From the NCBI GenBank assembly GCA_965205075.1, contig OZ242036.1, forward strand, positions 3,196,795-3,260,794: a stretch of DNA of 64,000 bases, given 5' to 3'. This DNA comes from Candidatus Poribacteria bacterium. Its GTDB lineage: Bacteria; Poribacteria; WGA-4E; PCPOR2b. Below, one piece after another: positions 241 to 57,334 of the stretch; within the stretch, counting starts at the first letter, position 1, and the number at the start of each line of letters is the position of its first letter. The notes under the pieces were generated by a model, which had not been told where the DNA came from, searched no databases, and saw only the letters and a program-made list of their open reading frames with translations. The translations under genes were made by a program, and so were the position numbers.

Positions 241-1062
241 CTACAATTTCCACTCATCACCAAGGATAACTTCCAGTTGGTCATGCGGCTTGAAGTAATC
301 GGTCGGGTGATAGTCCTCACCCATGTATCCGAATAAGCGTTTACGGCGAGGTGTCATTCGCTCTAGCACATGCGGCGGAAGCGTTTCGTAGTCGTAGGGA
401 CGGCTCCACATCTGACCGTAACGGAAGGTGACACTTTTCCGAATCCGATCGGTTTTATTCGGTCCAACCGAGTGCCACTGTGCCCACGGAAAGATGACGG
501 CATCACCCGGATCGGCAAGCACTTGGATCGCTCCCTCCGGGATAAACCCGGGTTCTGGGCGTTCAGGGAAAGGCTTTTGCTGACTGCCCGGCACTAGCAT
601 GAAGTTCGCGCTGTCTGGCTTTGATACATCGGTCAAGAAGAACTGAACCTTGAATTGCAGTGGGAGGCTTTGGGGATGTGGGTGAATCTGCTGCAGTGAG
701 GGACCAGCATCCGTATGAAAACTCAGCAAAGGGTCATCGCTAGGGTGTCGAGTGTAGATCTGCGTTCCCATAATCTGGAGGTAGGGCCCCATCAATGCAA
801 GAATTGTCCCGAAGATGTTGGGGTGATCCGTTAAGACATCCAGCGCATCTGTTCTTTCGATCGCCCGAATGATGGTGAAAGCACCTCGACCAAACTGGGG
901 GGCATCTGGACCATCCGTTTCCCGGACGTATTCTTCAATAACCGGATCGACAGCCTCCAAAAGTGTGCAAACCTCCTCAGGGGAGAGCACCTGTTTCACA
1001 ATAAGATAGCCCTGCTCATCCCAGTGTTTGCGTTGTTCCTCTGTCAAGTATCCGTTTACCAT
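241..1062 (-). CDS. Phytanoyl-CoA dioxygenase (PhyH) family Fe(II)/2-oxoglutarate oxygenase
   Basis: 273-aa ORF with an HTDAG (HxD) iron-binding motif and a distal WH motif. Length and composition are typical of PhyH-family proteins. Confidence 0.75.
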   Translation of the reverse strand: MVNGYLTEEQRKHWDEQGYLIVKQVLSPEEVCTLLEAVDPVIEEYVRETDGPDAPQFGRGAFTIIRAIERTDALDVLTDHPNIFGTILALMGPYLQIMGTQIYTRHPSDDPLLSFHTDAGPSLQQIHPHPQSLPLQFKVQFFLTDVSKPDSANFMLVPGSQQKPFPERPEPGFIPEGAIQVLADPGDAVIFPWAQWHSVGPNKTDRIRKSVTFRYGQMWSRPYDYETLPPHVLERMTPRRKRLFGYMGEDYHPTDYFKPHDQLEVILGDEWKL

Positions 1063-8799: not shown

Positions 8800-9660
8800 T
8801 TACTTCTGTCGGACAAACTTCTGCAAGCGATGATCCGCCTGCACTTCGCTGACATAGATATCGCCGTGCGAATCCAGCCAGATACCGTGTGGACAGGCGA
8901 AGAACTCGCCCGGAACAGTGCTGCCGCGTTCGCTACCCCATTGGGTGATAATCTCGCCATCAAGTGTCAAAATTGTGAGGCGCTGCTGTAACTCTGCAAT
9001 GTAAACAATGTCATCGTCATCAATAAAGATGGTATCTGGCTCCAAGAATCCGCCCCACTCCTCAATATATTCGCCATCAAGCGTGAAAAGCTGGATGCGG
9101 TTGTTGCTCCGGTCTGCGACCATTACACGGTTATGACGGTCTACCCGGACGCAATGCGGCAGATCGAACTCACCGGGACCCGTCCCCGGAGATCCCCAAG
9201 ACATAATGTACTCACCATCTGGGGAGTATTTGTGGATCCGTGCGTTGCCGTACCCATCGCTGATGAACATCTCTCCATCGGGACCGAGCGCAAGGTCTGT
9301 CGGCAAATTGAAAGGCTCACCTTCCGCACCGGGCTGATCGGGGGTCCCCAGTGTCATCAGGAGTTCCCCGTCAGCGGTGAATTTGCGCATGACATGCACC
9401 TCTCGCTCGACGCAATAGATGTGATCTTCGGCATCAATGAAAATACCGTGCGAGTCTTTGAGGATATCTTCGCCCCACGATGCGAGAAAGTTACCTTCGC
9501 GATCGAATACAACCATCGGGCGTTCGCTTCGACTGTAGACATAAATTCTATCCTGTGAATCAACCGCGACTGCGGGGATCCAACCAAATTTCCAACCTTC
9601 GGGGAGTTGTCCCCAACCTTCTTGCACCTCATAGGTATGGCTACCTGAACCATATATCAT
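8800..9660 (-). CDS. NHL-repeat beta-propeller protein
   Basis: Repeated D/N-x-x-N-x-R-I/V motifs (ADRSNNRIQLF, etc.). Start re-placed at ATG 9660 with RBS GGAGG 9 nt upstream. Confidence 0.65.
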   Translation of the reverse strand: MIYGSGSHTYEVQEGWGQLPEGWKFGWIPAVAVDSQDRIYVYSRSERPMVVFDREGNFLASWGEDILKDSHGIFIDAEDHIYCVEREVHVMRKFTADGELLMTLGTPDQPGAEGEPFNLPTDLALGPDGEMFISDGYGNARIHKYSPDGEYIMSWGSPGTGPGEFDLPHCVRVDRHNRVMVADRSNNRIQLFTLDGEYIEEWGGFLEPDTIFIDDDDIVYIAELQQRLTILTLDGEIITQWGSERGSTVPGEFFACPHGIWLDSHGDIYVSEVQADHRLQKFVRQK

Positions 9661-9911
9661 AATACTGTACCTCCAAGATTTATGGTAGATTTTAGAATTA
9701 CTTAGACACTTCCAATGGACATGTACAGATTGGGAAATCTGTACCCGCAAACAACCCCCTAAATCCCCCTTATCAGGGGGACTTTGGGAAATGTCCACTT
9801 ATTTCTCTAATTCACCATAGAATTTGAACAATCCGTGAGTTAAATTACGAATCCTGCCTAACGGTGTGGTATACTTTTCTAATAACAATCGACTTGAATT
9901 TTTGCCTATCT

Positions 9912-9935: not shown

Positions 9936-9967
9936 TATACCTATAGTCAAAATTAAAAGGGGAAAAA

Positions 9968-11032
9968 ATGAAAAAAAATATAATCCTTCTATTGACAACA
10001 GCAGCTTTTATACTGTTCGGCTGTGCCCGAGATTCGGGGGAGGTCAATGCGATTGCATCGACGATAGATTATTCGGACGATCGCATCCTCACAGTTCTAC
10101 CGTATGATGCGATTCCTGCAATCCTAAATCCCGAATTCGTCTCTGCCAATAAAGCGAAACTAGCGGATAACTCGCCGGTGATTGGTGTTAGTTTCAATGG
10201 GGAAAGCCGCGCCTATTCGATCCATCTGCTCAACGGACACGAAATCGTCAACGATGAGGTCGGCGGCGTTAAGATTGCAACGACGTGGTGACCACTTTGC
10301 AAAACGGCTATCGTGTATAGTCGTGAACTTGACGGAAAAACCTACACCTTTGGCGTTTCCGGCAAACTCTTTCGCGATGCGCTGCTTATGTATGACCACC
10401 AAACCCGGACGCTCTGGTCACACATTACCGGCGAAGCCGTGCAAGGCGAGCTCAAGGGTAAACGGTTAAAGATGTTAGCTGGCACACCGCGAATCACATG
10501 GAAGGCCTGGAAACGCAACCAGCCATTGACAAAAGTGCTCTCTGTGGCAAACGATTTTCGTGGTCCGGAGAGACACCTCCAAGATATAAGAACCGATAAC
10601 TACGCTATGTATCATGCTAGTTCCGACGCAGGCATAAGCGGCACACAATATACCGACGACCGCTTGATGAACAAGGAGCTAGTTGTTGGCGTCCGCATCA
10701 ATGAGAGCTATCGCGCTTATCCTTTCACAACTTTCAAGAAGAAGTCAATTATCAATGACGAAGTAGGTGACGTGCCGGTGCTAGCCTTTCACGATTTGGA
10801 CTCGAATGCAACTGCCGTTTTTCTCCGCGTTGTAGATGAACAAACATTGAGGTTTGAGCCGGCGCGAGGTTACTTTGTTAAAGATGTTACAACGAAGACA
10901 ACATGGAATCTTATCACAGGGATGGCAACGAAGGGCAAACTTAAAGGACACACACTAGAGCGATTGCCAGCGATGAATATCTACTGGTTTGCTTGGGCGC
11001 GTTACCATCCTGAAACAACTGTCTACAACTAA
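9968..11032 (+). CDS. DUF3179 family secreted protein with an in-frame TGA (10289-10291) at the Cys of the conserved W-C-P-L-C motif; candidate selenoprotein (UxxC) or pseudogene
   Basis: ORFs 9968-10291 and 10313-11032 are in the same frame. The sequence reads TTW-TGA-PLCKTAIVYSRELDGKTYTFGVSGKLF, matching the DUF3179 CPLC core. Signal peptide with lipobox LFGC. Other genes in the window terminate at TGA, so a global TGA reassignment is unlikely. Confidence 0.5.
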
Positions 11033-11550: not shown

Positions 11551-12465
11551 ATGAAATGTTGTAGAATCAGTTTGATTTTCTTGGGAATTGTCAGTGCGAT
11601 AGTTATTGGAGTCGTAGCTGAAGGACAGGAGACAGGTTACTTTATTGAGCAACTGCAGAACAAAAAAGAGATAGTTGAGGTTCGGCGCAAAGCTGCTTAT
11701 GCGTTAGGGCAGATTGGTGATCCAGCCGCTATCACAGTGTTGGTTAAGTCATTGAAGGATGAGCGTGGCGAGGTTCGGGCTGCGGCTGCCTCTGCTTTAG
11801 TGCGGATAGGTTCCCTTACTGTGCCTGAACTTATACGATCGCTGAATAGCAAAGATGCTGTTGTTCGTTCCACTGCGGCTTATGCCTTGGGTCGGATTGG
11901 TGAGCCCAATGCGATCCCCGCGTTGGTGCAGTTATTGAATGACGAACGATGGGAAGTCCGTCAAAATGCCGCTTCGGCATTGGGGAAAATTGACCAATCG
12001 TCTCAAACAGTTGTGTTCACCTTAATTCAAGGGTTGAGCGATAAGCATATCAATGTACGCATCTCGGCGGCTTCGATGTTGGGGCAGATTGGTGCACCGG
12101 CTGAAGCAGCTATTCCTGGGTTGGCGTACGCACTTAACCATCAACAGGTAACCCTTCGTGGTACTGCAGCGTATGCCTTGGGTCAGATTGGCGTACCGAC
12201 GCGAACGGCTGTTGCTGCGTTGATAAACGCGTTAAATGATGAGTCGCTGTGGGTACGCGCCAACGCCGCTTATGCGTTGGCTCAAGTCGACAATTCCAAA
12301 CACGAGATGGCGACCCACGCCTTGACAGAAGTGCTAAGTTGTAAAGTGGCTGGGGTTCGTTTGTACGCAGCGCGAGCACTAGCTGCTATGGATGACATCT
12401 CTCAACCCCGATTTTATCGGGATTCAAAGCAACCTGCGGTGATCGAGATCGCAAGTAAAGAGTAA
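11551..12465 (+). CDS. HEAT-repeat (PBS-lyase type) protein
   Basis: Tandem about 31-aa repeats of the type VRxxAAxALGxIGxPxAIPxLxxxLxD. RBS AGGAGG 7 nt upstream. Confidence 0.75.
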   Translation: MKCCRISLIFLGIVSAIVIGVVAEGQETGYFIEQLQNKKEIVEVRRKAAYALGQIGDPAAITVLVKSLKDERGEVRAAAASALVRIGSLTVPELIRSLNSKDAVVRSTAAYALGRIGEPNAIPALVQLLNDERWEVRQNAASALGKIDQSSQTVVFTLIQGLSDKHINVRISAASMLGQIGAPAEAAIPGLAYALNHQQVTLRGTAAYALGQIGVPTRTAVAALINALNDESLWVRANAAYALAQVDNSKHEMATHALTEVLSCKVAGVRLYAARALAAMDDISQPRFYRDSKQPAVIEIASKE

Positions 12466-12676: not shown

Positions 12677-13774
12677 ATGAAGGATCGATTAAGAGTTGGC
12701 ATTGTTGGCGCGCGTAGAGGAGCCGGGCATATCCGTCCCTTCACAACCATTACAGAAACAGAGGTAACCGCAATCTGCGATCTGAACGAAGAGACTCTTC
12801 ATGAGGTCGGAGATCGATATGGTGTTCCGAAACGGTTCATGGACTATGAACAGATGCTCGCGGATGATATTGATATCGTTGTGCTAGGGACACCCGAAAA
12901 TCTGCATGTGCCGCAGTCTATTTCGGGGCTGGAGGCAGGGAAGCATGTCGTCAGCGAGGTGACGGCGGCAACCTCCATGGATCAGTGCTATGAGTTGGTC
13001 AGGGCAGTAAGAAAGAGCAAAACGAAGTATATGATGGCGGAGAACAAGTGCTATACACGGTCAAGCATGTTAATTGGAAACATGGTGCGTCAAGGCTTGT
13101 TCGGAGACATTTACTTTGGTGAGGGCGAATATCTCCATGACATCAAAGTGCTGCATCACGACAGCAGTGGCAATCCGACTTGGCGATACTATTGGCAGGT
13201 CGGTATAAACCGATGTAACTATGCGACGCATAGCCTTGGTCCGGTGATGGACTGGTTCAACGAACGGGTTGTTTCGGTGTGTTGTCTCGGAACTGGTGTA
13301 CACACCGATCCGGAACATGCCATGGAAGACACAGTAATGATGTTGTGCAAGACCGAGAGTGGGGCTCTGATTAAGATCCGAATTGATATGCTCTCCAATC
13401 GTCCGGCGAACTCATACCTGAGTTTGCAGGGAACAAAGGGCTGTTATGAAGGCACACGAGGAATGAGGGACGTAGAAAAGGTTTGGTTGGCAGATTACCA
13501 CCAACAGGGTGGGTGGCAGCCGTTAGCAGACTTTGAGGATGAGTTTCTGCCAGAAAGTTGGAAAAATCCGCCGGCGGAAGCCGTGAAGGCTGGAGATGTG
13601 ACCGAGGAGTATTTTGAGATGCGCGGTTTTGTCGATAGCATCATTAACGACACCAAGCCGCCAATTGATGTCTATGACGCTATGGATTTGACAGTGCCGG
13701 GGCTGCTCTCTGAGGAATCAATTGCAAATGGTGGAAAGCCCGTTGAGGTGCCTGATTTTCGGGAGATTGACTAG
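12677..13774 (+). CDS. Gfo/Idh/MocA family oxidoreductase
   Basis: N-terminal VGIVGARRGAGH Rossmann region and overall family architecture, 365 aa. Confidence 0.8.
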   Translation: MKDRLRVGIVGARRGAGHIRPFTTITETEVTAICDLNEETLHEVGDRYGVPKRFMDYEQMLADDIDIVVLGTPENLHVPQSISGLEAGKHVVSEVTAATSMDQCYELVRAVRKSKTKYMMAENKCYTRSSMLIGNMVRQGLFGDIYFGEGEYLHDIKVLHHDSSGNPTWRYYWQVGINRCNYATHSLGPVMDWFNERVVSVCCLGTGVHTDPEHAMEDTVMMLCKTESGALIKIRIDMLSNRPANSYLSLQGTKGCYEGTRGMRDVEKVWLADYHQQGGWQPLADFEDEFLPESWKNPPAEAVKAGDVTEEYFEMRGFVDSIINDTKPPIDVYDAMDLTVPGLLSEESIANGGKPVEVPDFREID

Positions 13775-20454: not shown

Positions 20455-20553
20455 GAACACCTACAATTAATGAATTGACCAGAAGATAAACACCAATATA
20501 AGCGATATCAAGTGTAATATATAAAACTAAATCATTTGAAGGGACCTCATTCG

Positions 20554-22584
20554 ATGAAAAAATGGATTGTTTTTTTGCTACTTATCGCTGCGCTGTGTGT
20601 GTGGCAGGCAAGCGAAATATTTGCTGTAGGTTTTTTGAAGTTTGAACGGGAGTTCAGTGGGAAGGGCTCAACGGACGGATTTTTTAGCAAAAATATTCAT
20701 GTTGGATTTGACGACACAGGCAACATTTATGTCAGTGACGCAGATAACCGGCTGGTCCAGAAACTGTCACCAAAAGGCGATTTCATTATGCAAATCCCGA
20801 AAGAGAAAACTGTGGACAACATACTCAGAAAGCCGGGCGATGTTGCTGTTGATGGAGTTGGAAATATCTACGTCGTCGATCAGGCTGTACCTCATCATAT
20901 CCCGGAAACCGCAGATCCGAAACTCTATTGGTTTGGTCCCTGTGTTTACAAGTTCAATCGAGATGGCGAATTAATGCACACCTACGTTGTCGATGCGATC
21001 GACGTGCGTCCCAAAGTAGTCCTGCCCACACGCCTGATGATTGACGAGGAGGGTAAAACGGCATTCGCCTATCAACCGAGGAATTATGATCGGTCAGTTC
21101 GCATTGATGTAAACAGCCAAAATCAACTATATGTGTTGGATGCGAAAAACGCTAAGGTTCACAAATTTGGTGCAGATGGGGAGAAATTAATCGCGTTTGG
21201 AAGATACGGGGCAAGCAATGGTGAGTTTGACACCGATGCCTCGGACATTGAAATTGATGCAGCAGGGAATGTGCTTATTGCGGACACCGGCAATCACCGT
21301 GTGGTCAAGTTTAACGCGGACGGGGAGTTTACATTGAAATTTGGGGTGAGGGGACGTAACGAAGGGGAATTTGTCAAGCCCATTGCTGTTGTCGCTTTGG
21401 CAACAGGTGAGATTCTGGTGAAAGATAAGAGCCAATTCAAACGGTTTTTGGGCAGTCCACTCGCAAATTTCTTGGACGTTGTTTCACCTTCTGGACAGGG
21501 GCTCGCCGATGTGTATTCAACCGGCACAGGACTTGTCAATTCGGTCATCAATACCACTCGACCGCGCTCTGCCTCTCTTAACCCAAATTTGCAGTCGTCA
21601 GATCTGGCTATCCTAAATCAGCGGATTCGTCTGCTTGAGGAAGCGGAATATCGCCGCTACCTCAACGAATACCTCGATGAAGAAGATGAGAAAGACGAAA
21701 ACAGAAGAGAGGAGGCAGAAGATCTGAAGGTTAAAGAGATTCGTGAGACAATCTATCACAACATCATTGCGCGTGTACAGCGATTTGATAGTAACGGCAG
21801 ATATAGAGGACGCGTGGTGTATGAAGTGGATAGACAGAGCGCGGAAGACCACGATCTCGCTTTCCTTGCCTTAGATCCCCTTGGTCACATTTACCTTCGC
21901 GACGGCAGTGATTTAATCATTCGTCAATATTCCATTGCAGGTTTTACGATTAAGCCATCGCACATGAACGTGGTTTATAATACTCGGGCACTCAACCGCG
22001 ATCATGACTTCCTTGAAGATTACGAAGATATCGACGACAAAGCAGACGTTGACGACCAATTGAATCTGTTACAGTTGAATAACTCCTTCTTTTGGACATA
22101 TAACCTCTCGGAAAGCTGGAACCTGACCCTTGCGGATGTTTTCACTTATGGGGAGCAGGATGAGCGCTATATAACGCCGCCAAAAGAGGAAGATAGCTAC
22201 GACTTTGAAACCCAAGCGTTGACGAACACTGTCGTTGCAAATCTTAAATTTATCACAAATCCCAATGCCTACCACTACAAGGAGTTCAATCTTTACGCTG
22301 AACGAATTGACGGCACAACAGACCTCTATCAACAGGCACTCTATCCAAATCTGAACCGTCAAGGTCAGGAGGGAGAGGGTGATGCAAGTTCTACAGCTTT
22401 TGGGGTGAATTGGGATGTATTCACGGATGTCAATCTGTGGTTGGAATACACAGATTTGAATCCGGCGAACACAAGTCGTAATTTTGTGCGTCGTTATTTT
22501 GATGCTTCGGGCGATCTCTATGAAGTTTTTGGTAGCCGCAACCGGGCAAGACAGTTTGTCGGTGAATTAACGGTTAAGTTTTAG
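20554..22584 (+). CDS. NHL-repeat protein with a charged coiled-coil linker and a C-terminal beta-barrel-like domain (autotransporter-like architecture)
   Basis: Signal peptide MKKWIVFLLLIAALCVWQA. NHL repeats (ADTGNHRVVKF, etc.). Linker EEDEKDENRREEAEDLKVKE. C-terminal about 250 aa with alternating hydrophobic residues, ending in TVKF. Confidence 0.55.
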   Translation: MKKWIVFLLLIAALCVWQASEIFAVGFLKFEREFSGKGSTDGFFSKNIHVGFDDTGNIYVSDADNRLVQKLSPKGDFIMQIPKEKTVDNILRKPGDVAVDGVGNIYVVDQAVPHHIPETADPKLYWFGPCVYKFNRDGELMHTYVVDAIDVRPKVVLPTRLMIDEEGKTAFAYQPRNYDRSVRIDVNSQNQLYVLDAKNAKVHKFGADGEKLIAFGRYGASNGEFDTDASDIEIDAAGNVLIADTGNHRVVKFNADGEFTLKFGVRGRNEGEFVKPIAVVALATGEILVKDKSQFKRFLGSPLANFLDVVSPSGQGLADVYSTGTGLVNSVINTTRPRSASLNPNLQSSDLAILNQRIRLLEEAEYRRYLNEYLDEEDEKDENRREEAEDLKVKEIRETIYHNIIARVQRFDSNGRYRGRVVYEVDRQSAEDHDLAFLALDPLGHIYLRDGSDLIIRQYSIAGFTIKPSHMNVVYNTRALNRDHDFLEDYEDIDDKADVDDQLNLLQLNNSFFWTYNLSESWNLTLADVFTYGEQDERYITPPKEEDSYDFETQALTNTVVANLKFITNPNAYHYKEFNLYAERIDGTTDLYQQALYPNLNRQGQEGEGDASSTAFGVNWDVFTDVNLWLEYTDLNPANTSRNFVRRYFDASGDLYEVFGSRNRARQFVGELTVKF

Positions 22585-23627: not shown

Positions 23628-24590
23628 ATGTCTCACAAACGCAAAAACATCGTTAAATTTTTCGCAATTTTAGGTTCAGCCGTGTTACTAATCGCACTGA
23701 CAGCAACTTGGACACTGACGGAAGAATCCAACTGGTATCCCTCCAAATGGGGAAAAGACGATCAGCGCGGCGCAGCAAACCTGCTGACAGCCACAAAGGT
23801 CGTAGAAGCTGCCAGCCTCATTAAGGAAGGAAAAGTCTACCAACTCGGTCGGGTTTACGAAGCAGGAATGCCGCTGTTTGGAACACGCCACTACAGTCTG
23901 TTGATTCCCCAAACCGGCAGCACCGACCACGCAAATAAGGTCACATGGCACGATGAAATTGTCAGTGGCGAAATTGGACAGATTGGCACCCAATTCGATG
24001 GGCTGGGACACATCGGTATCGGCGATCTTTACTACAACGGCAACAATCGACTCGACTTTGCAAAGCCTGATGGACTCAAAAAACTGGGTGTCGAGAATGT
24101 CGGCGTTTTCGTCACTCGCGGGGTGCTCATCGACGTTGCCGGGTATAAAGGCGTTGAGCATCTGGAGGGCGGCTACGAGATCACGGTTGAGGATATAGAG
24201 GGCGCATTAAAAAAGCAGGGTGTGGAGATACATCCGGGCGATGTGGTTATTACTCACACCGGTTGGGGGAAATTCTGGATGACGGACAACGAACGCTATA
24301 ACGGATCGGAGCCAGGTATCGGTATGGAGGCAGGCAAGTATCTGGTTGAGCAACAGATTGTTATGGCGGGTGCGGACAATTGGGCAATTGAAGTGGTCCC
24401 AAATCCTGACGAATCGGTTTTTGCCCCTGTCCATCAACTGTTCATTGCCAAAAACGGCATCTATAACATCGAGAATCTCATCACGGCAGAGCTCGCAGCG
24501 GATAAGGTTTATGAGTTTGCCTTTATCTTTTCTCCGCTACGGCTGAAAGGTGGCACCGGATCTCCGGGCAATCCCATTGCGATTCGTTAA
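23628..24590 (+). CDS. Cyclase-family protein (kynurenine formamidase-like, PF04199), secreted
   Basis: Signal peptide. Motifs such as GTQFDGLGHIG (the H-x-G-x-H-x-D-type metal-binding region of the family). Confidence 0.65.
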   Translation: MSHKRKNIVKFFAILGSAVLLIALTATWTLTEESNWYPSKWGKDDQRGAANLLTATKVVEAASLIKEGKVYQLGRVYEAGMPLFGTRHYSLLIPQTGSTDHANKVTWHDEIVSGEIGQIGTQFDGLGHIGIGDLYYNGNNRLDFAKPDGLKKLGVENVGVFVTRGVLIDVAGYKGVEHLEGGYEITVEDIEGALKKQGVEIHPGDVVITHTGWGKFWMTDNERYNGSEPGIGMEAGKYLVEQQIVMAGADNWAIEVVPNPDESVFAPVHQLFIAKNGIYNIENLITAELAADKVYEFAFIFSPLRLKGGTGSPGNPIAIR

Positions 24591-24630
24591 TTGGAAAGTA
24601 GTTATTTCCTTTCATAACTTAAAAGAGGCA

Positions 24631-26178
24631 ATGATGAAGCGATTGAGCATAGCAATGGCAGCTTTCGGACTGTTAGCTGCTCTTGCCTATCTCACAGCGT
24701 CCTTTTCAGGTTATGCTTCTGAAGAATCAGAACTGGAAAAGGGCACAGGCACCTTCCTCAAAGCAGGTGATTATGAGAATGCATTAAAATTGGTTGAGGG
24801 TTTTATTTTAGAGAACCCACAGGAACCGATTGGGCATGCCATGCTGGTGAAGGTCCTTGCCGCAAGTGGTCAAACCGAAAAGGCACTTAAAGCGTATTAT
24901 CAGTTTTATAAGCTGGGTAACTCCCTCTCTGAAGAGCTACTACTTGAACTACTGCTTAGCGCTCTTAATGATGATAGCTCGGAGGTGCGATCGTTTGCTA
25001 TGTGGGAGTTGAGAGAATTAGGAGATAACCGTGCTATCCCTGCTCTGAAAAATGCTCTCGACGATGATAGTTCGGAGGTACGATCGTTTGCCGCAGAAAC
25101 ATTGGGAAAATTAGGGGATAAAAGTGCCGTACCCCATTTGATAAACGCTCTCAACCATAACGATGACACGCTACAGGAGGCTGCCGCAAAAGCGTTGGGA
25201 AAATTAGGGGATAAAAGTGCCGTACCCCATTTGATAAAGATTCTCAACCATGAGGATGACGCGGTACAGAAGGCTGCCGCAAAAGCATTGGGAAAATTAG
25301 GGGATAAAAGTGCCGTACCCCATTTGATAAAGATTCTCAATGATGATGATAATTGGGTAAGATGGGAGGTTGCAGAAACGTTAGGAGAGTTGGGGGATAA
25401 AAGTGCGATTCCGGCTTTAATAAACGCTCTCAACGACATTCGCTGGGTACGCCTAGCTCCCGCGGGAGCGTTGGTAAAGTTGGGAGATAAGCGCGGTGAG
25501 TCCGTTTTGATAAACGCCCTCAACGATGACGATAGCACCGTACGACGGGTTGCTGCAAAAGTGTTGGACAAATCGGGGGATGGACGTGGTGTACTCGTTT
25601 TGATAAACGCTCTCAACCATGACGATAGCACGGTACGAATGAATGCCGCAGGTGTTTTGGGAGAGTTGGGAGATAAGCGTGCGGTGCCCGTTTTGATAAA
25701 CGCTCTCAACGATGACGATATCACGGTACAATGGCCCGCTGCAGAGGCGTTGGGAAAGTTGGGGGATAATAGTGCCGTTGCCTCTTTGATAAGCGCTCTT
25801 AACGATAAAAATATCCTTGCCGCAGAAGCATTGGGAAAATTGGGAGATGAGCGTGCGGTGCCCGCTTTGATAAATGCTCTCAACGATGATAATATCACGG
25901 TACAATGGATTGTCGCAGAAGCGTTGGGAAAGTTGGGGGATAAGCGTGGCATCCCTGTTTTGATAAACGCCGTCAAGCACAACGGAGGCTTGCCGCGATG
26001 GAATCCCGTAGACGAGAGCTTAGTAGTATGGAGTGCTGCAACAGCACTAGCGGAGTTAGGAGATAAACGTACGATGCCCGCTCTGATGGAAATTCTCGGA
26101 GACGACAATCAGGATATCGAAATAAAGCTCAAGGCAGTAGCAGTAGTGTTGAAATTAAACCGATCTACCCACAAGTAG
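24631..26178 (+). CDS. HEAT-repeat (PBS-lyase type) protein with a signal peptide and about 12 near-identical repeats
   Basis: Repeats LINALNDDDxxVRxxAAxALGKLGDKSAVPxLI. Start placed at ATG 24631 after RBS AAAGAGG. Confidence 0.75.
   Translation: MMKRLSIAMAAFGLLAALAYLTASFSGYASEESELEKGTGTFLKAGDYENALKLVEGFILENPQEPIGHAMLVKVLAASGQTEKALKAYYQFYKLGNSLSEELLLELLLSALNDDSSEVRSFAMWELRELGDNRAIPALKNALDDDSSEVRSFAAETLGKLGDKSAVPHLINALNHNDDTLQEAAAKALGKLGDKSAVPHLIKILNHEDDAVQKAAAKALGKLGDKSAVPHLIKILNDDDNWVRWEVAETLGELGDKSAIPALINALNDIRWVRLAPAGALVKLGDKRGESVLINALNDDDSTVRRVAAKVLDKSGDGRGVLVLINALNHDDSTVRMNAAGVLGELGDKRAVPVLINALNDDDITVQWPAAEALGKLGDNSAVASLISALNDKNILAAEALGKLGDERAVPALINALNDDNITVQWIVAEALGKLGDKRGIPVLINAVKHNGGLPRWNPVDESLVVWSAATALAELGDKRTMPALMEILGDDNQDIEIKLKAVAVVLKLNRSTHK
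24950..26000 (+). repeat. Coding tandem repeats (about 93 bp units, several nearly identical at the DNA level) within the HEAT-repeat gene
   Basis: The string ggggataaaagtgccgtaccccatttgataaa recurs three times. This explains the artefactual 400-aa antisense ORF at 24906-26108. Confidence 0.7.
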
Positions 26179-26186
26179 AGGGAGAT

Positions 26187-27266
26187 ATGCCTAAAACGAA
26201 GTACCGCGTCGGAATTATCGGTTGTGGCGGCATTGGGACACGTTATGCGGCAGCGTTTCAGCAGCTGCGTGACCGCGTGGAGGTTGTCGCCGCCTGCGAC
26301 ATCATCGAAGAGAAGGTGAACGCATTTGTCGAACAATTTGAGATTCCATCGGCGCACACGGACATGCAACAGATGTTAAGCAAAGAAAGGCTTGATATCG
26401 TCGGCGTGACAACGCACAACCGGGAGCATGTCGAGCCAACAATTGCAGCAGCCCACGCCGGGGTTAAAGCAATCCTCTGCGAAAAGCCGATGGCATTGAA
26501 CATGAGAGACGCGGACAGAGTCATCGAAGCGTGTGAGCGATCTGGGACGAAGCTAGCGATTGACCACACCATGCGGTTTGAACCCAATTGGCGTCGTGTC
26601 AAGCAGATGGTGGATGAAGGCGTAATTGGCAAACTCCTACATATCGAAGTTCAAAATTATGGCGATACCAGCACGTTGCTGCACAACGGGACGCACAGCT
26701 GCGACGCCATTCGGTGGTTCGGCGGAGACCCGGAGTGGGTTATCGCGACTGTCGACCGGAGCAATGAACGCGAACGGATTATGAGCTTTTTCAGTCTCAA
26801 CGACGGGATCACGGCACTGTTCATGACCGGCGGACACTGGGATTACCGGCTAGATGGCTGTTTTATCCTTGAAGGCAGCGAAGGTAAGATAGAGGTTCGT
26901 CCGCACCGTAGTTGGCAACCGCTGATCCGGCTTTGGAAGAAGGATGGAGGATTGGGAGATTTTCGTGAGGGAGAGCAGATCAAGGCGATAGGCAGCGAAC
27001 TCATTGGGGATTCGACAGGAGATGTACCGAGCGAAGGCGCGTGGGAAATGGTCGCTTGTCTCGACGAGGACAGAGAGAGCGTCTCCAGTGGATACGATGG
27101 TCGCATCGCTTTGGAGATGTGTCTCGCCGCTTACGAATCAGAACGGCTCGGTCGAGTCAAAATCCCGTTTCCATTAGCTCAAAAAGAATCTCCGCTTGAA
27201 CTGATGCTTCAAAGCGGACAGCTTCCATACATCCCTGCGAGGGAATACGGTTGGGAGTTGGGTTAA
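26187..27266 (+). CDS. Gfo/Idh/MocA family oxidoreductase
   Basis: VGIIGCGGIGTRYA Rossmann motif and an EKPMALNMRDADRV motif. Confidence 0.85.
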   Translation: MPKTKYRVGIIGCGGIGTRYAAAFQQLRDRVEVVAACDIIEEKVNAFVEQFEIPSAHTDMQQMLSKERLDIVGVTTHNREHVEPTIAAAHAGVKAILCEKPMALNMRDADRVIEACERSGTKLAIDHTMRFEPNWRRVKQMVDEGVIGKLLHIEVQNYGDTSTLLHNGTHSCDAIRWFGGDPEWVIATVDRSNERERIMSFFSLNDGITALFMTGGHWDYRLDGCFILEGSEGKIEVRPHRSWQPLIRLWKKDGGLGDFREGEQIKAIGSELIGDSTGDVPSEGAWEMVACLDEDRESVSSGYDGRIALEMCLAAYESERLGRVKIPFPLAQKESPLELMLQSGQLPYIPAREYGWELG

Positions 27267-37456: not shown

Positions 37457-38281
37457 ATGACACCGGAAGAGAGATACCTATTTGATCTGCACGGATACTT
37501 GGTGCTGCGCGGGGTGCTGTCCCCCGATATACGTCAACGCCTCAACGAAACGATAGATTATCTTGAAACGCTTGATGATAGTCAGACCGTAGCCTTGGGC
37601 ACCGAACGGAAATATCGTGCCTCGGACAACGTCTACGCTCAGACGGGTGTCCCGTCAGAAGATGGCTTAGGCGATTATGACTGTGAGGTGCTACGCTATG
37701 GTGGTCCCTTTGAGGAACTTATCGACCTGCCCCAAACACTTCACTATATTGAGGAGATGATTGGTGAACCCAGCCGGCTCGATGCAGCCAGCTTTATGTC
37801 ACGGAACAGTGGAGGAGCGTTTCGGTTCCATCACGGTTATGCGGAGTTACTACCCTATAGCGAGTATGCCTTCCGAGACGGAGCGTTCAAGTGCGTAAGC
37901 GTGAAAATTGGGTATGCGTTGACGAACGTTGATGTGGAAGACGGTTGTTTTGCTGTTATCCCCGGAAGCCACAAGAGCAACTTCACCAACCCGCTCGTGG
38001 GGCAGATTCCAGATCCCGCCCATCCACTTGTGCAACCGCTGCCGTGTAAAGCCGGTGATGCCATCATCTTCTCTGAAGACCTATCCCACGGGGCTGTAGA
38101 GAACTACGGCTCAAAGGTACGGCGGACACTGTTTTATTCCTACGCACCGGCGTTTCACTGCACTTGGCACGGCTTGGCAATGACAGCCGAAGGTTTTGAG
38201 CAGCGCGCAACTCCACGCCAACTCGAACTTATCCAAGGACCGCCCCCATTTGCTCATACCTCCGAAGCTGATGTCCGCTAA
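37457..38281 (+). CDS. Phytanoyl-CoA dioxygenase (PhyH) family protein
   Basis: N-terminal FDLHGYLVLRGVL motif, an HxD...H arrangement, family length. Confidence 0.7.
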   Translation: MTPEERYLFDLHGYLVLRGVLSPDIRQRLNETIDYLETLDDSQTVALGTERKYRASDNVYAQTGVPSEDGLGDYDCEVLRYGGPFEELIDLPQTLHYIEEMIGEPSRLDAASFMSRNSGGAFRFHHGYAELLPYSEYAFRDGAFKCVSVKIGYALTNVDVEDGCFAVIPGSHKSNFTNPLVGQIPDPAHPLVQPLPCKAGDAIIFSEDLSHGAVENYGSKVRRTLFYSYAPAFHCTWHGLAMTAEGFEQRATPRQLELIQGPPPFAHTSEADVR

Positions 38282-38331
38282 TATCTGTCCCAATGAATTA
38301 AAAACAGGCATAATTCCAGAGAAATCAGAAG

Positions 38332-39177
38332 GTGAACTCCATGAAACCAGCTACGGAAGAAGATGTTTTTGACTTGCAGATTGGTCTTGGTGAATCCGAA
38401 ACCGCTGTTGAAGATAAGCATTTCTTCGACACAGCTGGTTATCTGGTATTAGAAGATCTCCTGACTCCGGGACAAGTTTCGCAGGCGCACGATACGTTGG
38501 CAAGTATTAAAGCAACAACACCGAAAAATATAACGCTATTACCAGATGGGCCCTATGGATGCGAATTGGTCAACATCATTGAAGGAAGGAATGTCGTTGA
38601 GGATGCCATGGCACTGCCCCGTGTCCTCGATTATGTGCAGGAATTCATTTGGGGACGCCAATACCGCCTCGTTGGCTCACGGGCAATAGTGCGAACACCG
38701 GGAAAGGGCAGTCAACTCACGCAAGGAGGGGATGCAGATCCGAGACGTTATGCCCGCTACCGTTGCTTTGGAGACGGTCAATTCCGTTGTCTGATGATTA
38801 CCTGTCTAATTGCGTTGACTAACACCGCCGATGGGGACGGAGCGTTTTGTGCAATTCCCGCCAGTCACAAAGCTAGCCTTCCACACCCCTATGAGAATAC
38901 GGATTTAAGCGCGATTGCGCCGCTGCAGAATATCCCATTGCGTGCCGGATCGGGTGTTTTGTTTACTGAAAACCTCTCTCACGCATTTCGACCGACTACC
39001 GGTGAAGGAGATGTGTGGCTGTCTTATCAGTACGGTCCTTCTTATATGGTCAATTGGCCCCGCTGCGAACCGTCAGCTGATCTGCTAGCGCGTACCGCTG
39101 CTAATCCCGCCAAGTCGCATCTGTTGTTAGAGCCGTATTACCACCCCGCCGGTTCACAAAAGAAACAAGAGATGTAG
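38332..39177 (+). CDS. Phytanoyl-CoA dioxygenase (PhyH) family protein (second paralog)
   Basis: FFDTAGYLVLEDLL N-motif, similar architecture to the preceding gene. Confidence 0.65.
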   Translation: MNSMKPATEEDVFDLQIGLGESETAVEDKHFFDTAGYLVLEDLLTPGQVSQAHDTLASIKATTPKNITLLPDGPYGCELVNIIEGRNVVEDAMALPRVLDYVQEFIWGRQYRLVGSRAIVRTPGKGSQLTQGGDADPRRYARYRCFGDGQFRCLMITCLIALTNTADGDGAFCAIPASHKASLPHPYENTDLSAIAPLQNIPLRAGSGVLFTENLSHAFRPTTGEGDVWLSYQYGPSYMVNWPRCEPSADLLARTAANPAKSHLLLEPYYHPAGSQKKQEM

Positions 39178-39205: not shown

Positions 39206-40222
39206 TCAGATAAGGCCCGCAGTAAAATCTTCCAGTCGAATTACTTCACCGCCCCGTGCAGCCGATGCATTTGCACCGAGAACTGCTGCGAGGCTATTCA
39301 TACTAGTGGCATAAGAACTCCGCATCATGCTAGCATCACCAATCCGCACAGCTTTGACAAAAGCGTGCGCTTGCAAGGCAAAAGCGTTATCGCTTTCCGT
39401 CGTTTCCCAGACAGTCTCACCATTCTCCACAACCTTTTGCCCCGACCACTCCATCAATGAATCATCGCTGACCAGCATCACTTGCTGCCGTGAAATACTC
39501 ACATTTGTCAGCACCCGCGAAACACTCACATTGGCAGTTATGCCGTTAGTGAAGCGGTAATTGACGTTGTATACATGCGGCATGTTCATCGGTTCGGGTC
39601 CCTCGCCGGGCTTCCGGTCAACGTAGAAAGCGGACACTGCTTCGATATCTCCCAAGAAGTAGCGCAGTAGATCTACCGTGTGGATGGTGTTTTCGACGAA
39701 TGAACCACCGCATAACTCGAAACGACTTGTCCAGTAGCGGATCGGCCTGCCACTGTAGAGACGCTGCACCAAGGCGTGTCGCAAGGTGCGCCCCTGCAAT
39801 CTCCGACACACCTCTTCTGCCGACGGATAATAACGGCTCATAAAGCCGACTTGGGAGACAACGCCCGATTCTTGGATAGCGGTTTCAAACCGAACGGCTT
39901 GCGCCATATCGAGTGTTTGCGGTTTCTCGACAAAGATAGCCAATCCTTTGTCCGCTGCAATAAGGATTTCGTCTGTGTGGAGTGTTGGCGGAATACAAAG
40001 ATAGACTGCGTCGAGGTCTTCTTTGTCCAACATTTCGTGGTGGTCGGTGTAGGTTGCCTGCGCCCCGAAGGCTGCAGCTTGTGTCTTTACAGTCTCTTCA
40101 TTGATATCACAGAATGCTTGCAAAGTGACCTCGCCGGCTTCGACTAACGGTGCAAGGGCGGGCAGGTGTGACCGAGTGGTGATATGGCCAAGACCGATAA
40201 ATCCCAAACGAACAGGTTTCAT
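39206..40222 (-). CDS. Gfo/Idh/MocA family oxidoreductase
   Basis: LGFIGLGHITTRSH Rossmann motif and an EKPQTLDMAQA motif. Start placed at ATG 40222 after GGAGG. Confidence 0.8.
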   Translation of the reverse strand: MKPVRLGFIGLGHITTRSHLPALAPLVEAGEVTLQAFCDINEETVKTQAAAFGAQATYTDHHEMLDKEDLDAVYLCIPPTLHTDEILIAADKGLAIFVEKPQTLDMAQAVRFETAIQESGVVSQVGFMSRYYPSAEEVCRRLQGRTLRHALVQRLYSGRPIRYWTSRFELCGGSFVENTIHTVDLLRYFLGDIEAVSAFYVDRKPGEGPEPMNMPHVYNVNYRFTNGITANVSVSRVLTNVSISRQQVMLVSDDSLMEWSGQKVVENGETVWETTESDNAFALQAHAFVKAVRIGDASMMRSSYATSMNSLAAVLGANASAARGGEVIRLEDFTAGLI

Positions 40223-40617
40223 AGTGATAGATACCTCCATTTCTGAAAAATGCTATAAGGACATGATGAGAATACCATATCTCAGCAACAATTAGCAAGT
40301 GTGATATGAGTTGACAAATCAATCGGTTATGAATAATAATTGTCTATAGGCATTTTCATGGAAATCAGGATTGCTTTGAGGAATAATCTGATTGTGCGGG
40401 ATTTGGAGGTTTTTGTGCAACCTAAAATTCAGTGAAAGTGTCAATCTATTCTTGAATTATCGTGCTGCAATTATGATATAATATCTTGATTAAAGAAGGG
40501 TTTCTTACGTCTGAGATTTGGTACTCTTATAGTCGGTATCATGTGTATAACTCTTGGTATTATCTTCGCTGTTCGTATTTCGATTTAGAATTTTCGTGTC
40601 CATAAAAAGGAGAGAAC

Positions 40618-41724
40618 ATGAAGGATTTATACCGTGTCGCTATTATCGGCACCGGTCGTATGGGTGGCTTAATCGAAGATGAACTCACGGTTAACCAATT
40701 TTCGAGCCCTTATGGGCACTTCAGCGCCTATGCCGCCATTGAGCAGACCGAGGTGGTCGCCGTTGCCAATCGTGGGGAGGAACGCTTGAAGCGGTTCACC
40801 GATCGGTTTGGCATTACCAACACTTATCTCGATTATCGCGAGATGATTGAGCGGGAAAAGCCGGACATTGTGAGTGTGACCACGCCATCATTCGCACGCG
40901 CTGAGCCGATTATCTTTGCGGCAGAGCATGGTGTACGAGGGATATATTCGGAGAAAGGGCTGTGTGCGTCATTGGAGGAAGCTGATCGCATTACCGCCGC
41001 GTGTAAAGCAAATGAGGTTGCCTTCAACTGGGGTGCGATGCGCCGACACCATGACGGCTACATTCGGGTGCGCGACGCGATTGCCCAAGGAGATATTGGC
41101 GAACCTCGCTATGCAGTAATGTCGAGCTATACCGACATCATTAAACACCACCCGCACACGCTAGATTTGGTAGCCATGTTGTTGGGGGACCCGATGCCGA
41201 TTTGGGTGGAGGGACGCTTGGTGCAGCGGGGCGAACCGTTGGCTGCAAACGCGGATCAACGTCCCCGCGCGTACCCAGAGTATGACTCCAATGGACATCG
41301 CTTTGTGCCACCCGCCGGGGAAGAGATTGCTGACCCCATGGTCGGATTCTTCCGGATTGGCTATGAAAACGATACGGAGGGGATTTTTCTACCCCTATCT
41401 GGACCATTTAACATTGATGTACACGGCACTGAAGGACACGCCTACGCATGGGACAACGGCGATGTTTTCTGCGTCCGCCGCAGTGCAAAGGGCGGGGCTG
41501 CCGTTGACGAAACGTTTATCAAGCCAGCAGGCGCAAGTCCTACGGTGTGCACAATTCGCAATATCATCCACGAGATTGAAACGGGTGAGCGCACCACAGG
41601 AAATATCGACATAACGATGCAATCGGTGGAGGCGCAATTCGGTATCGCGCATTCGCACTTGCAAGGGGGTGCTCGCGTGGCATTACCTGTCGCAGATCGA
41701 ACCCTTTACATCCCCGGCGGTTGA
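40618..41724 (+). CDS. Gfo/Idh/MocA family oxidoreductase (candidate glycoside 3-dehydrogenase)
   Basis: VAIIGTGRMGG Rossmann motif. Immediately followed by a DUF1080 gene. Confidence 0.8.
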   Translation: MKDLYRVAIIGTGRMGGLIEDELTVNQFSSPYGHFSAYAAIEQTEVVAVANRGEERLKRFTDRFGITNTYLDYREMIEREKPDIVSVTTPSFARAEPIIFAAEHGVRGIYSEKGLCASLEEADRITAACKANEVAFNWGAMRRHHDGYIRVRDAIAQGDIGEPRYAVMSSYTDIIKHHPHTLDLVAMLLGDPMPIWVEGRLVQRGEPLAANADQRPRAYPEYDSNGHRFVPPAGEEIADPMVGFFRIGYENDTEGIFLPLSGPFNIDVHGTEGHAYAWDNGDVFCVRRSAKGGAAVDETFIKPAGASPTVCTIRNIIHEIETGERTTGNIDITMQSVEAQFGIAHSHLQGGARVALPVADRTLYIPGG

Positions 41725-53189: not shown

Positions 53190-53223
53190 CAATGGAGGCG
53201 TGGAACCTGATGTGGGACAGTCA

Positions 53224-53258
53224 GAAAACGGGACCGCTCTGCTCCCGTTTTCTCCTCT
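53224..53258 (+). terminator. Rho-independent terminator after the porin gene
   Basis: GAAAACGGGA-ccgctctgc-TCCCGTTTTC followed by TCCTCT. Confidence 0.65.
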
Positions 53259-53304
53259 AATATCTTCTCACGTTTCACGTTTCATTCGTTGGAGGGGACA
53301 CGCT

Positions 53305-55309: not shown

Positions 55310-55367
55310 GTCGTGATAGGTGCTTGTCGAATTACGATGCCGACACGCCAGTGGATGACCATCAATT

Positions 55368-56276: not shown

Positions 56277-56295
56277 CGTTCATTCGAAAAATTAG

Positions 56296-57237: not shown

Positions 57238-57334
57238 GATTCTAGTTGAAAACCCGTAGCGATTAAGAACTACAAGCGAAGCGACATTTGAAATTCAATG
57301 CTGAGAATTTTAATTTACCGTAAAATCTAAGACA

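What the first reader, a model, noticed from the sequence alone, without database searches (positions are those of the whole stretch)
9968..11032. DUF3179 gene with an in-frame TGA exactly at the Cys of its conserved W-C-P-L-C motif: candidate novel selenoprotein (UxxC)
Two adjacent ORFs (9968-10291 and 10313-11032) are in the same frame, separated only by TGA at 10289-10291. The flanking sequence TTW-[TGA]-PLCKTAIVYSR...FGVSGKLF matches the DUF3179 core, where a Cys normally occupies this position. TGA is a normal stop elsewhere in the window (genes ending at 2287 and 6612), so global recoding is unlikely. Sec replacing Cys in a CxxC redox motif is the classic signature of selenoproteins. A 7-bp hairpin (CGGCTAT-cgtgt-ATAGTCG, 10305-10323) begins 14 nt downstream of the UGA, roughly where a bacterial SECIS sits. 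The alternative is an authentic nonsense mutation or pseudogene.
Basis: partly seen in the sequence, partly recalled or inferred. Interest (0 to 1): 0.8.

Follow-up and report, generated by a model that had tools for sequence, protein, structure and literature searches.

The report
Known-family selenoprotein gene (DUF3179)
The in-frame TGA is almost certainly a genuine selenocysteine codon, with a conserved RNA hairpin just downstream, in an exported protein of unknown function from a sponge-associated Poribacteria-like bacterium; the DUF3179 family is already listed as a selenoprotein family, so this is a correct but ordinary call.

Summary
Window 9968-11032 is one 354-codon DUF3179 gene (Pfam E=1.5e-83) interrupted only by TGA at 10289-10291, in the motif W-U-P-L-C. 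The same codon is TGA in 80 of 81 related loci from Poribacteria, Latescibacterota and Chloroflexota, and more distant homologues carry Cys there. The hairpin at 10304-10324 (loop CGUGU) meets all four published bacterial SECIS criteria. It is paired in 98.9% of cells across 80 genes and shows two compensatory pair changes. It also covers the five most synonymously constrained codons of the gene (p=1.8e-5). TGA ends 11 of 53 long ORFs in the window, so the code is not reassigned. Pseudogene, assembly error, split gene and global recoding are therefore rejected. No Sec machinery lies in the 64 kb; support for it is at phylum level, from the literature only. The claim of novelty fails: two reviews (2022, 2026) list DUF3179 as a selenoprotein family with motif UxxC/T and cite Zhang & Gladyshev 2007. 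Extra findings are a signal peptide, an internal duplication of a ~120-residue module, and a weak Rieske-ferredoxin-like fold. Within that fold, Sec may occupy the position of a cluster-binding Cys, but this is a lead only. Interest is low.

The parts
9956..9963 (+). Purine-rich Shine-Dalgarno-like stretch (AAAGGGGA), 4 nt upstream of ATG 9968
   Evidence: Read directly. No comparable stretch precedes the internal GTG at 10313, which argues for a single translation start at 9968 (inference).
9968..11032 (+). Complete DUF3179 selenoprotein gene: 354 codons including Sec108, plus TAA stop
   Evidence: Pfam PF11376, E=1.5e-83, profile 2-292/292. Orthologues are aligned over residues 1-354.
9968..10024 (+). 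N-terminal signal sequence MKKNIILLLTTAAFILFGC with a lipobox-like LFGC, so the protein is probably exported or lipid-anchored
   Evidence: Sequence. Most orthologues have similar hydrophobic N-termini, but the lipobox Cys is not universal. No signal-peptide predictor was available, so this is inference.
10178..10543 (+). Module 1 of an internal duplication (residues 71-192). It carries His91 (10238-10240), Sec108 and Cys111.
   Evidence: BLASTP of module 1 against module 2 gives 34% identity, E=2e-18. The model of the Cys-form orthologue shows two beta-rich modules.
10289..10291 (+). UGA read as selenocysteine (Sec108), first position of U-P-L-C
   Evidence: TGA at the aligned codon in 80 of 81 related loci. 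Cys is at this position in P0037, P0058, P0079 and the Scalindua-type proteins.
10298..10300 (+). Cys111, second position of the UxxC motif
   Evidence: Cys in 79/79 TGA-carrying genes, with both TGT and TGC in use. It is replaced by Ala in Scalindua-type Cys forms.
10304..10324 (+). Bacterial SECIS upper stem-loop: stem 10304-10311 / 10317-10324, apical loop CGUGU at 10312-10316
   Evidence: Fold (-8.0 kcal/mol). It meets the published criteria. It is paired in 98.9% of cells with 2 compensatory pairs, and RNAalifold recovers it. Codons 10304-10318 are the five least synonymously variable of 162.
10292..10335 (+). Possible lower SECIS helix (10292-10297 pairing with 10331-10335) enclosing the upper stem-loop; weak in this window
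   Evidence: helix 1 is 87.9% paired, with covariation at columns 12/51. In the window itself that pair is an A-C mismatch, so this part is tentative.
10682..11029 (+). Module 2 of the duplication (residues 239-354). The columns holding His/Sec/Cys in module 1 hold Lys/Asp/Ser here, so the site is lost.
   Evidence: Alignment.

Best explanation
Window 9968-11032 is a single intact gene for an exported DUF3179 protein. Codon 108 (UGA, 10289-10291) is decoded as selenocysteine. The hairpin 10304-10324, which lies inside the coding sequence with 20 nt between the UGA and its apical loop, acts as a bacterial SECIS. It is expected to recruit SelB-GTP-Sec-tRNA(Sec) so that the ribosome inserts Sec instead of terminating. 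The product carries Sec in the family's one universally conserved Cys position (W-[C/U]-P-L). That position lies in the first of two duplicated beta-rich modules. The most likely role of the Sec is as a redox-active nucleophile, able to form a selenenylsulfide with Cys111, or alternatively as a metal ligand, in the periplasm. Shown here: the continuous frame, conservation of the TGA, Cys/Sec pairing with homologues, a SECIS-like structure under RNA-level selection, and normal use of TGA as a stop elsewhere. Inferred: SelB dependence, export, and the chemistry of the Sec site.
For: Frame and motif. Full-length DUF3179 match.

Conservation of the TGA: about 100 of the 120 best protein homologues are 239-aa N-truncated gene calls, which is the signature of callers stopping at the TGA. 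An 89%-identical syntenic orthologue is split in the same way, into 106 + 239 aa. TGA is at the aligned codon in 80 of 81 loci from distinct species of Poribacteria, Latescibacterota and Dehalococcoidia/Chloroflexota.

Coding selection across the TGA: HEIVND upstream and P-L-C downstream are invariant at the protein level while their codons vary synonymously. The 21 nt between the TGA and the GTG are therefore translated.

Cys homologues: P0037, P0058, P0079 and the Scalindua-type proteins have Cys at this position.

SECIS: the criteria quoted are all met. The loop is 5 nt, the stem 8 bp, G is at loop position 2 followed by U, the spacing is 20 nt, and the MFE is -8.0. The upper helix is paired in 98.9% of cells against 28-45% for the slid controls. 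CG->GC and UA->CG compensatory changes occur in four Chloroflexota genes, and GC/GU alternate at one pair. Normalised synonymous entropy is 0.13 for codons 10304-10319 against 0.79 for the other 156 conserved degenerate codons (Mann-Whitney p=1.8e-5).

TGA as an ordinary stop: 11 of 53 ORFs in the window and many orthologues end in TGA.

Sec use in the phylum: SelA, SelB and SelD COGs are present in Ca. Poribacteria WGA-3G and enriched in sponge symbionts (PMC5649159 Table S4). Sec-type hydrogenases have been reported in Poribacteria and Chloroflexota MAGs (PMC13582414).

Family status: DUF3179 is already listed as a selenoprotein family with motif UxxC/T.
Against: No selA, selB, selD or tRNA-Sec lies in the 64-kb window, and the rest of the source genome could not be inspected. 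On this single sequence the hairpin is not statistically unusual. The loop CGUGU has the required G but does not fit the commonest N1-G-[G/U]-N-N2 sub-pattern, in which N1 and N2 pair. No Rfam model exists for bacterial SECIS, so there is no independent database hit. One Cys-form orthologue (L082) keeps the whole hairpin, so the hairpin sequence alone does not prove current SECIS function. There is no experimental evidence of selenium incorporation for any DUF3179 protein in the papers I could read.
Confidence: 0.92

Rival explanations
1. The UGA is recoded through the same SECIS and SelB, but as cysteine rather than selenocysteine, by a tRNA-ReC-type tRNA (SelC*).
For: PMC13582414 notes that tRNA-ReC lets UGA with a SECIS be read as Cys. 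It reports such tRNAs in some MAG lineages and calls this an inherent limit of bioinformatic selenoprotein calls. The genome behind this window could not be searched for tRNAs beyond the 64 kb.
Against: That paper found tRNA-ReC in only a minority of Sec-type genomes (about 2-17%) and does not report it for Poribacteria. Keeping UGA plus a SECIS in about 80 species merely to insert Cys, when TGT/TGC would do, is hard to explain. SelA and SelD, which are needed only for Sec, are reported in Poribacteria.
Confidence: 0.04
2. The TGA is a true nonsense mutation or an assembly error, and the gene is a pseudogene.
For: A single in-frame stop splits the gene, and public annotations call the orthologues as two fragments.
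Against: The same TGA is present in 80 of 81 independent assemblies from three phyla, including long complete chromosomes. Both halves are under purifying selection at the protein level. There are no other frame disruptions. For contrast, a truly decayed copy (L068) has an extra stop and a truncation.
Confidence: 0.01
3. There are two separate genes. Translation terminates at the TGA and restarts at GTG 10313, giving a two-subunit DUF3179 protein.
For: The GTG at 10313 is in frame, and gene callers use it.
Against: The 21 nt between the TGA and the GTG encode P-L-C-K-T-A-I. These residues are conserved at the protein level with synonymous variation and include the family's second Cys. No Shine-Dalgarno-like sequence precedes 10313. 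The GTG is itself a constrained SECIS loop codon. The Cys forms are single polypeptides, and the split would cut through the middle of a beta-module.
Confidence: 0.02
4. TGA is reassigned genome-wide to a sense codon (Trp or Gly, as in genetic codes 4 and 25).
For: None beyond the in-frame TGA itself.
Against: 11 of 53 long ORFs in the window end at TGA, with their Pfam domains complete. No other long gene in the window needs TGA read-through. The homologous residue is Cys, not Trp or Gly.
Confidence: 0.01

Closest known systems
Sec-containing DUF3179 domain proteins (PF11376), listed as a prokaryotic selenoprotein family with motif UxxC/T; credited to Zhang & Gladyshev 2007, NAR 35:4952, in PMC9312934 and PMC13188914
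   Same: Same Pfam family over its full length, the same Sec position and the same U-x-x-C motif, with a SECIS-like hairpin directly downstream of the UGA.
   Different: Nothing essential differs. This copy comes from a Poribacteria-like genome. The closest orthologues (Ca. Poribacteria MAGs, 82-88% identity) are annotated in public databases as truncated 239-aa proteins rather than as selenoproteins. I could not tell which named family in the 2007 paper corresponds to DUF3179.
Bacterial SECIS / SelB-dependent UGA recoding (consensus bSECIS model of Zhang & Gladyshev, as summarised in PMC13188914 Fig. 2)
   Same: The stem-loop lies in the coding region just 3' of the UGA. The loop is 5 nt with G at position 2 followed by U, the stem is 8 bp, the spacing is 20 nt and the MFE is -8.0.
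   Different: The loop CGUGU does not fit the commonest sub-pattern, in which the flanking loop bases pair. SelB binding was not tested.
Cys-containing DUF3179 proteins (e.g. P0037 from Ca. Poribacteria OY730443.1; Candidatus Scalindua proteins P0092, P0117)
   Same: 41-63% identical over the full length, with the same two-module architecture and Cys exactly where the window has UGA.
   Different: They have TGT/TGC instead of TGA. The Scalindua-type proteins also lack the second Cys (WCPLA). Two of the three Cys-form genes examined have a degraded hairpin (L083, L084) and one keeps it (L082).
Rieske-type [2Fe-2S] ferredoxins (e.g. PDB 2qpz, 5bok; E. coli HcaC)
   Different: There is no significant sequence similarity (hhalign probability 0.2%; no Pfam Rieske hit). 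The four-ligand pattern CxH...CxxH is not present: the protein has N-G-H-x16-U-P-L-C instead. It is therefore not a Rieske protein and probably does not hold a Rieske cluster.

Membership tests
Bacterial selenoprotein gene (Sec-UGA plus bSECIS) | In-frame UGA aligned with Cys in homologues (a Cys/Sec pair) | tested here: met
   the window has W-U-P-L-C, while P0037, P0058, P0079 and the Scalindua proteins have W-C-P-L.
Bacterial selenoprotein gene (Sec-UGA plus bSECIS) | TGA-containing homologues in other organisms, with coding conservation on both sides of the TGA | tested here: met
   80 of 81 loci in three phyla carry TGA. Codon-level conservation is shown.
Bacterial selenoprotein gene (Sec-UGA plus bSECIS) | bSECIS geometry: apical loop of 3-9 nt, upper stem of 4-16 bp, G in the first two loop positions, 16-37 nt between UGA and loop, MFE <= -7.5 kcal/mol (PMC13188914 Fig. 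2) | tested here: met
   The loop is CGUGU (5 nt, G at position 2), the stem is 8 bp, the spacing is 20 nt (10292-10311) and the MFE is -8.0.
Bacterial selenoprotein gene (Sec-UGA plus bSECIS) | The hairpin is maintained by selection at the RNA level | tested here: met
   98.9% of cells are paired, with 2 compensatory pairs. Codons 10304-10318 are the five lowest in synonymous entropy of 162 codons, p=1.8e-5.
Bacterial selenoprotein gene (Sec-UGA plus bSECIS) | selA, selB, selC (tRNA-Sec) and selD present in the same genome | not testable with these tools
   None is in the 64-kb window, and the rest of the genome was not available. Only phylum-level literature support exists: SelA/SelB/SelD COGs in Ca. 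Poribacteria WGA-3G and Sec-type hydrogenases in Poribacteria MAGs.
Bacterial selenoprotein gene (Sec-UGA plus bSECIS) | Selenium actually incorporated (75Se labelling or mass spectrometry) | not testable with these tools
   This is experimental. No such data for DUF3179 were found in the searchable library.
DUF3179 (Pfam PF11376) | Match to the family HMM above the gathering score over the whole domain | tested here: met
   281 bits against a cutoff of 27, E=1.5e-83, profile positions 2-292 of 292.
DUF3179 (Pfam PF11376) | Sec form with motif UxxC/T, as catalogued in the reviews | tested here: met
   U-P-L-C at residues 108-111, matching the tables in PMC9312934 and PMC13188914.
Rieske [2Fe-2S] domain | Rieske beta-fold | tested here: inconclusive
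Rieske [2Fe-2S] domain | Four cluster ligands C-x-H ... C-x-x-H | tested here: not met
   The protein has N-G-H91 ... U108-P-L-C111. The first Cys is absent and the second His is replaced by Cys. The motif itself is recalled from established knowledge and is visible in E. coli HcaC (CSH...CPLH).
Rieske [2Fe-2S] domain | Sequence or profile similarity to Rieske families | tested here: not met
   No Pfam Rieske hit even at E<=10. hhalign against HcaC gives probability 0.2%.
Thioredoxin-fold CxxC/UxxC oxidoreductases | Thioredoxin fold around the CxxC motif | tested here: not met

The most novel reading that the evidence does not exclude
DUF3179 may be a tandemly duplicated, exported derivative of the Rieske fold. 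In this reading, the Sec of module 1 sits at the position of the box II cluster-ligating Cys. Together with the retained box I His (His91) and Cys111, it would form a previously undescribed selenium-containing mononuclear metal or redox centre. This Sec form, with an almost identical SECIS, is nearly universal in Poribacteria and shared with Chloroflexota and Latescibacterota genomes, several of whose MAG names look sponge- or coral-derived. That pattern could reflect habitat-linked selection or horizontal spread.
Probability: 0.15. Interest if true: 0.55.

Novelty: new member of a known kind. Interest (0 to 1): 0.2.

Why it matters
The main value is for annotation. The gene should be annotated as one 354-residue selenoprotein, not as the 107-aa and 239-aa fragments now called in public records for its Poribacteria orthologues. 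It also shows that the source organism uses the selenocysteine system, which fits earlier reports that SelA and SelB are enriched in sponge symbionts. Beyond that it adds no new principle, because the family and the motif are already catalogued. The internal duplication and the Rieske-like fold give a starting point for working out what this uncharacterised exported family does.

Tried and rejected
- **Rfam:** no hit at gathering score on the whole window or at E<=10 on 10200-10450. Rfam gave no match here, so this is uninformative.
- **tRNA search:** ARAGORN found no tRNA or tRNA-Sec in the window or in 60 related loci.
- **Other selenoprotein genes:** a scan of the window for further TGA-interrupted genes found no convincing candidate.
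- **Pfam scan of 50 long ORFs:** no SelA, SelB, SelD or other selenium-related gene.
- **NCBIfam:** no model matches the protein.
- **PDB by sequence or profile:** no match.
- **Exact-sequence look-up of the window's 239-aa ORF:** not on record, so the source contig could not be extended.
- **Structure prediction of the window protein with Cys at position 108:** The Cys-form orthologue P0037 was modelled instead.
- **Neighbour-gene clustering over 85 loci:** no partner gene is conserved across phyla. SDR, PhyH, M42 peptidase and GFO_IDH neighbours reflect synteny within Poribacteria only.
- **Promoter and terminator scan:** nothing above chance.
- **hhalign of the module-1 profile against E. 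coli HcaC:** not significant.
- **Mapping DUF3179 to a named family in the 2007 paper:** I could not establish which one it is.

Full report
**Observation.** An ORF from ATG 9968 runs to TGA at 10289-10291. The same frame continues without any other stop to TAA at 11030-11032. The context is ...VGGVKIATTW-[TGA]-PLCKTAIVYSRELDGKTYTFGVSGKLF.... With Cys placed at codon 108, the 354-residue product matches Pfam DUF3179 (PF11376) over the whole profile (positions 2-292 of 292, 281 bits against a cutoff of 27, E=1.5e-83). A purine-rich Shine-Dalgarno-like stretch precedes ATG 9968, and none precedes the internal GTG at 10313. The hairpin at 10305-10323 exists, and an eighth A-U pair extends it to 10304-10324. 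Its loop is CGUGU and its MFE is -8.0 kcal/mol. On this single sequence the fold is unremarkable (z = -0.97).

**Is TGA an ordinary stop here?** Yes. 11 of 53 long ORFs in the window end in TGA. No other long gene in the window needs TGA read-through. Many orthologues of this gene also terminate with TGA. Genome-wide reassignment is excluded.

**Comparative evidence for the codon.**
- In a search of 5.8 billion proteins, about 100 of the 120 best hits (down to roughly 57% identity) are 239-aa proteins covering only the C-terminal 67% of the query. Gene callers have started them at the GVG-equivalent GTG after the TGA. The named hits are from Candidatus Poribacteria.
- A syntenic orthologue at 89% identity is called as 106 + 239 aa, both fragments DUF3179.
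- A scan of one genome per GTDB species returned 80 loci: about 62 Poribacteria, 2 Latescibacterota, and the rest Dehalococcoidia/Chloroflexota.
- The codon aligned with 10289-10291 is TGA in 80 of the 81 loci L001-L081. Locus L080 carries two tandem paralogues, both with TGA.
- The single exception, L068, has TGT but is a decayed copy with an extra stop and a truncation. An intact Cys-form gene (P0037 = L082) lies elsewhere in that same genome.
- More distant full-length homologues (P0058, P0079, Scalindua proteins) have Cys at this position.
- In a codon alignment of 79 genes, residues on both sides are invariant as amino acids while their codons vary synonymously. This holds for HEIVND upstream and for Pro, Leu and Cys in the 21 nt between the TGA and the GTG. 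The whole frame is therefore translated and under purifying selection.
- Together these results reject the pseudogene, assembly-error and split-gene readings.

**Evidence for a SECIS.** The 2026 review quotes the consensus bacterial SECIS model as follows: apical loop of 3-9 nt, upper stem of 4-16 bp, G in the first two loop positions, 16-37 nt between the UGA and the loop, and MFE <= -7.5 kcal/mol. The window element has a 5-nt loop (CGUGU, G at position 2 followed by U), an 8-bp stem, 20 nt of spacing (10292-10311) and an MFE of -8.0. It meets every criterion.

Across 80 TGA-carrying genes (alignment A1) the comparative picture is:
- The upper helix is paired in 98.9% of cells, against 28-45% when the 3' partners are slid by 1-3 columns.
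- Two pairs show compensatory double changes (CG->GC and UA->CG) in four Chloroflexota genes.
- One pair alternates between G-C and G-U.
- RNAalifold recovers the core of the helix independently.
- Because the peptide A-I-V-Y-S is itself conserved, I tested synonymous sites directly. Codons ACG-GCT-ATC-GTG-TAT (10304-10318) are the five least variable of 162 conserved degenerate codons in the gene.
- Mean normalised codon entropy for codons 10304-10319 is 0.13, against 0.79 for the other 156 codons (Mann-Whitney p=1.8e-5).
- A possible lower helix (10292-10297 with 10331-10335) is 87.9% paired across the family but has an A-C mismatch in this window, so I treat it as tentative.
- Of three Cys-form genes, two have a degraded hairpin and one keeps it. 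That sample is too small to be a strong control.

**Sec machinery.** The window contains no tRNA and no Rfam match. A Pfam scan of 50 long ORFs found no SelA, SelB or SelD. It looks like an ordinary Gram-negative chromosomal segment: lptC-lptA-lptB-rpoN-hpf-hprK, a pst/phoU cluster, TonB and its receptor, and many GFO_IDH and PhyH paralogues. The exact 239-aa ORF is not on record, so the source contig could not be extended.

At phylum level the literature is supportive. Slaby et al. 2017 report SelA and SelB as enriched in sponge-symbiont bins. Their Table S4 lists COG1921 (SelA) = 2, COG3276 (SelB) = 1 and COG0709 (SelD) = 1 for Ca. Poribacteria WGA-3G. A 2026 study reports Sec-containing group 4 hydrogenases in Poribacteria and Chloroflexota MAGs. 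The same study raises a caveat: tRNA-ReC can decode UGA with a SECIS as Cys. I keep that as a minor rival.

**What is known.** DUF3179 is already in the catalogue of prokaryotic selenoprotein families. The 2022 review lists 'DUF3179 domain-containing protein, pfam11376, UxxC/T' with example MBW1804167.1. The 2026 review lists the same family with example MDJ0986319.1. Both cite Zhang & Gladyshev 2007 on the Olavius symbionts. I could not determine which of that paper's named families corresponds to it. No paper in the searchable library addresses the function of DUF3179, no NCBIfam model matches it, and no solved structure matches by sequence. The gene is therefore a new member of a known selenoprotein family, not a novel selenoprotein.

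**How the protein may work (inference).**
- The N-terminus (MKKNIILLLTTAAFILFGC) looks like a signal or lipoprotein leader. Most orthologues have similar leaders, so the protein is probably exported.
- The AlphaFold model of the Cys-form orthologue P0037 (pLDDT 82, pTM 0.80) shows two beta-rich modules.
- BLASTP of window residues 69-193 against 235-354 gives 34% identity, E=2e-18, so the protein is an internal duplication.
- His91, Sec108 and Cys111 of module 1 align with Lys, Asp and Ser in module 2. Only module 1 keeps the candidate site.
- A profile of module 1 shows no significant similarity to the E. coli Rieske ferredoxin HcaC (probability 0.2%). The only local match is ATTWCPLCK with ATVECPLHA, which is the Rieske box II.
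- The Rieske ligand pattern C-x-H...C-x-x-H is not met. The protein has N-G-H-x16-U-P-L-C.
- I therefore do not file it as a Rieske protein. The Sec may sit where a cluster-ligating Cys sits in that fold.
- Because Scalindua-type members lack the second Cys (WCPLA), the first position is the essential one. A nucleophilic or redox role, or a metal-ligand role, are the two candidates. I cannot separate them here.
- No neighbouring gene is conserved across phyla that would help.

**Verdict.** The novelty claim is not supported. Interest is low (0.2). The practical outcome is a corrected annotation, plus some descriptive points about an uncharacterised family.

Noticed in passing
Loci L002-L081 (e.g. 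L002:2822, L063:2759, L067:2744); window 10304-10324: The SECIS core GGCTATCGTGTATAGYC is almost identical at the nucleotide level in Poribacteria, Latescibacterota and most Dehalococcoidia genes, although the proteins are only 42-51% identical. Several MAG names look sponge- or coral-derived. This could reflect strong SelB constraint or horizontal transfer among co-resident symbionts.
   Followed up: partly
Window 10178-10543 and 10682-11029: DUF3179 is an internal tandem duplication of a ~120-residue beta module (34% identity, E=2e-18). His/Sec/Cys of module 1 are replaced by Lys/Asp/Ser in module 2. The best structural matches are Rieske ferredoxins. I found no mention of this in the papers searched.
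   Followed up: partly
L068:2519-3079 and L082:3001-4044 (both on contig OY730443.1): The one Poribacteria genome without a TGA form carries an intact Cys-form gene (P0037, which still has the full hairpin) plus a second, decayed Cys-form copy with an in-frame stop and a truncation. This looks like a recent Sec-to-Cys conversion followed by duplication and decay.
   Followed up: partly
L080:2507-3436 and L080:3468-4691: A Chloroflexota contig has two tandem DUF3179 paralogues. Both carry TGA at the same codon and the compensated GGGCAU/AUGCC stem variant.
   Followed up: no
Proteins P0087, P0106, P0111, P0120; P0107 and P0120 carry Pfam PF01391: Some Poribacteria orthologues have a collagen-like G-x-y repeat (for example GADGIDGRDGTDGQDGADGQDGGDGG) inserted between the two modules.
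   Followed up: no
L083:168-2293: A Cys-form DUF3179 gene (P0058) directly follows an FGE-sulfatase family gene and overlaps it by 4 nt, so the two are probably co-translated. This is the only hint of a functional partner and is seen in one short contig only.
   Followed up: no
L001:1-452: An IS605 OrfB / TnpB-like (Cas12f1-like_TNB) gene lies about 2.5 kb from the orthologous DUF3179 gene in a 1.1-Mb ENA contig. It is absent from the corresponding position in the window.
   Followed up: no
Window 53200-54435: This ORF combines two PhoU domains with a C-terminal low-molecular-weight phosphotyrosine phosphatase / ArsC-like domain. It sits at the head of a pstS-pstC-pstA-pstB-pstB cluster (54395-58881).
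   Followed up: no
Window 62392-63981 (minus strand): This ORF has cohesin, dockerin type I and FlgD Ig-like domains, which is an unusual combination.
   Followed up: no
Window 241-1062, 1286-2287, 12677-13774, 26187-27266, 37457-39177, 39206-41724: There are many paralogous GFO_IDH_MocA oxidoreductase and PhyH dioxygenase genes, plus HEAT-repeat proteins (11551-12465, 24550-26178) and NHL-repeat proteins (8800-9798, 20536-22584). This matches the expansions of COG0673 (MviM dehydrogenases) and COG5285 listed for Poribacteria in Slaby 2017 Table S4.
   Followed up: no
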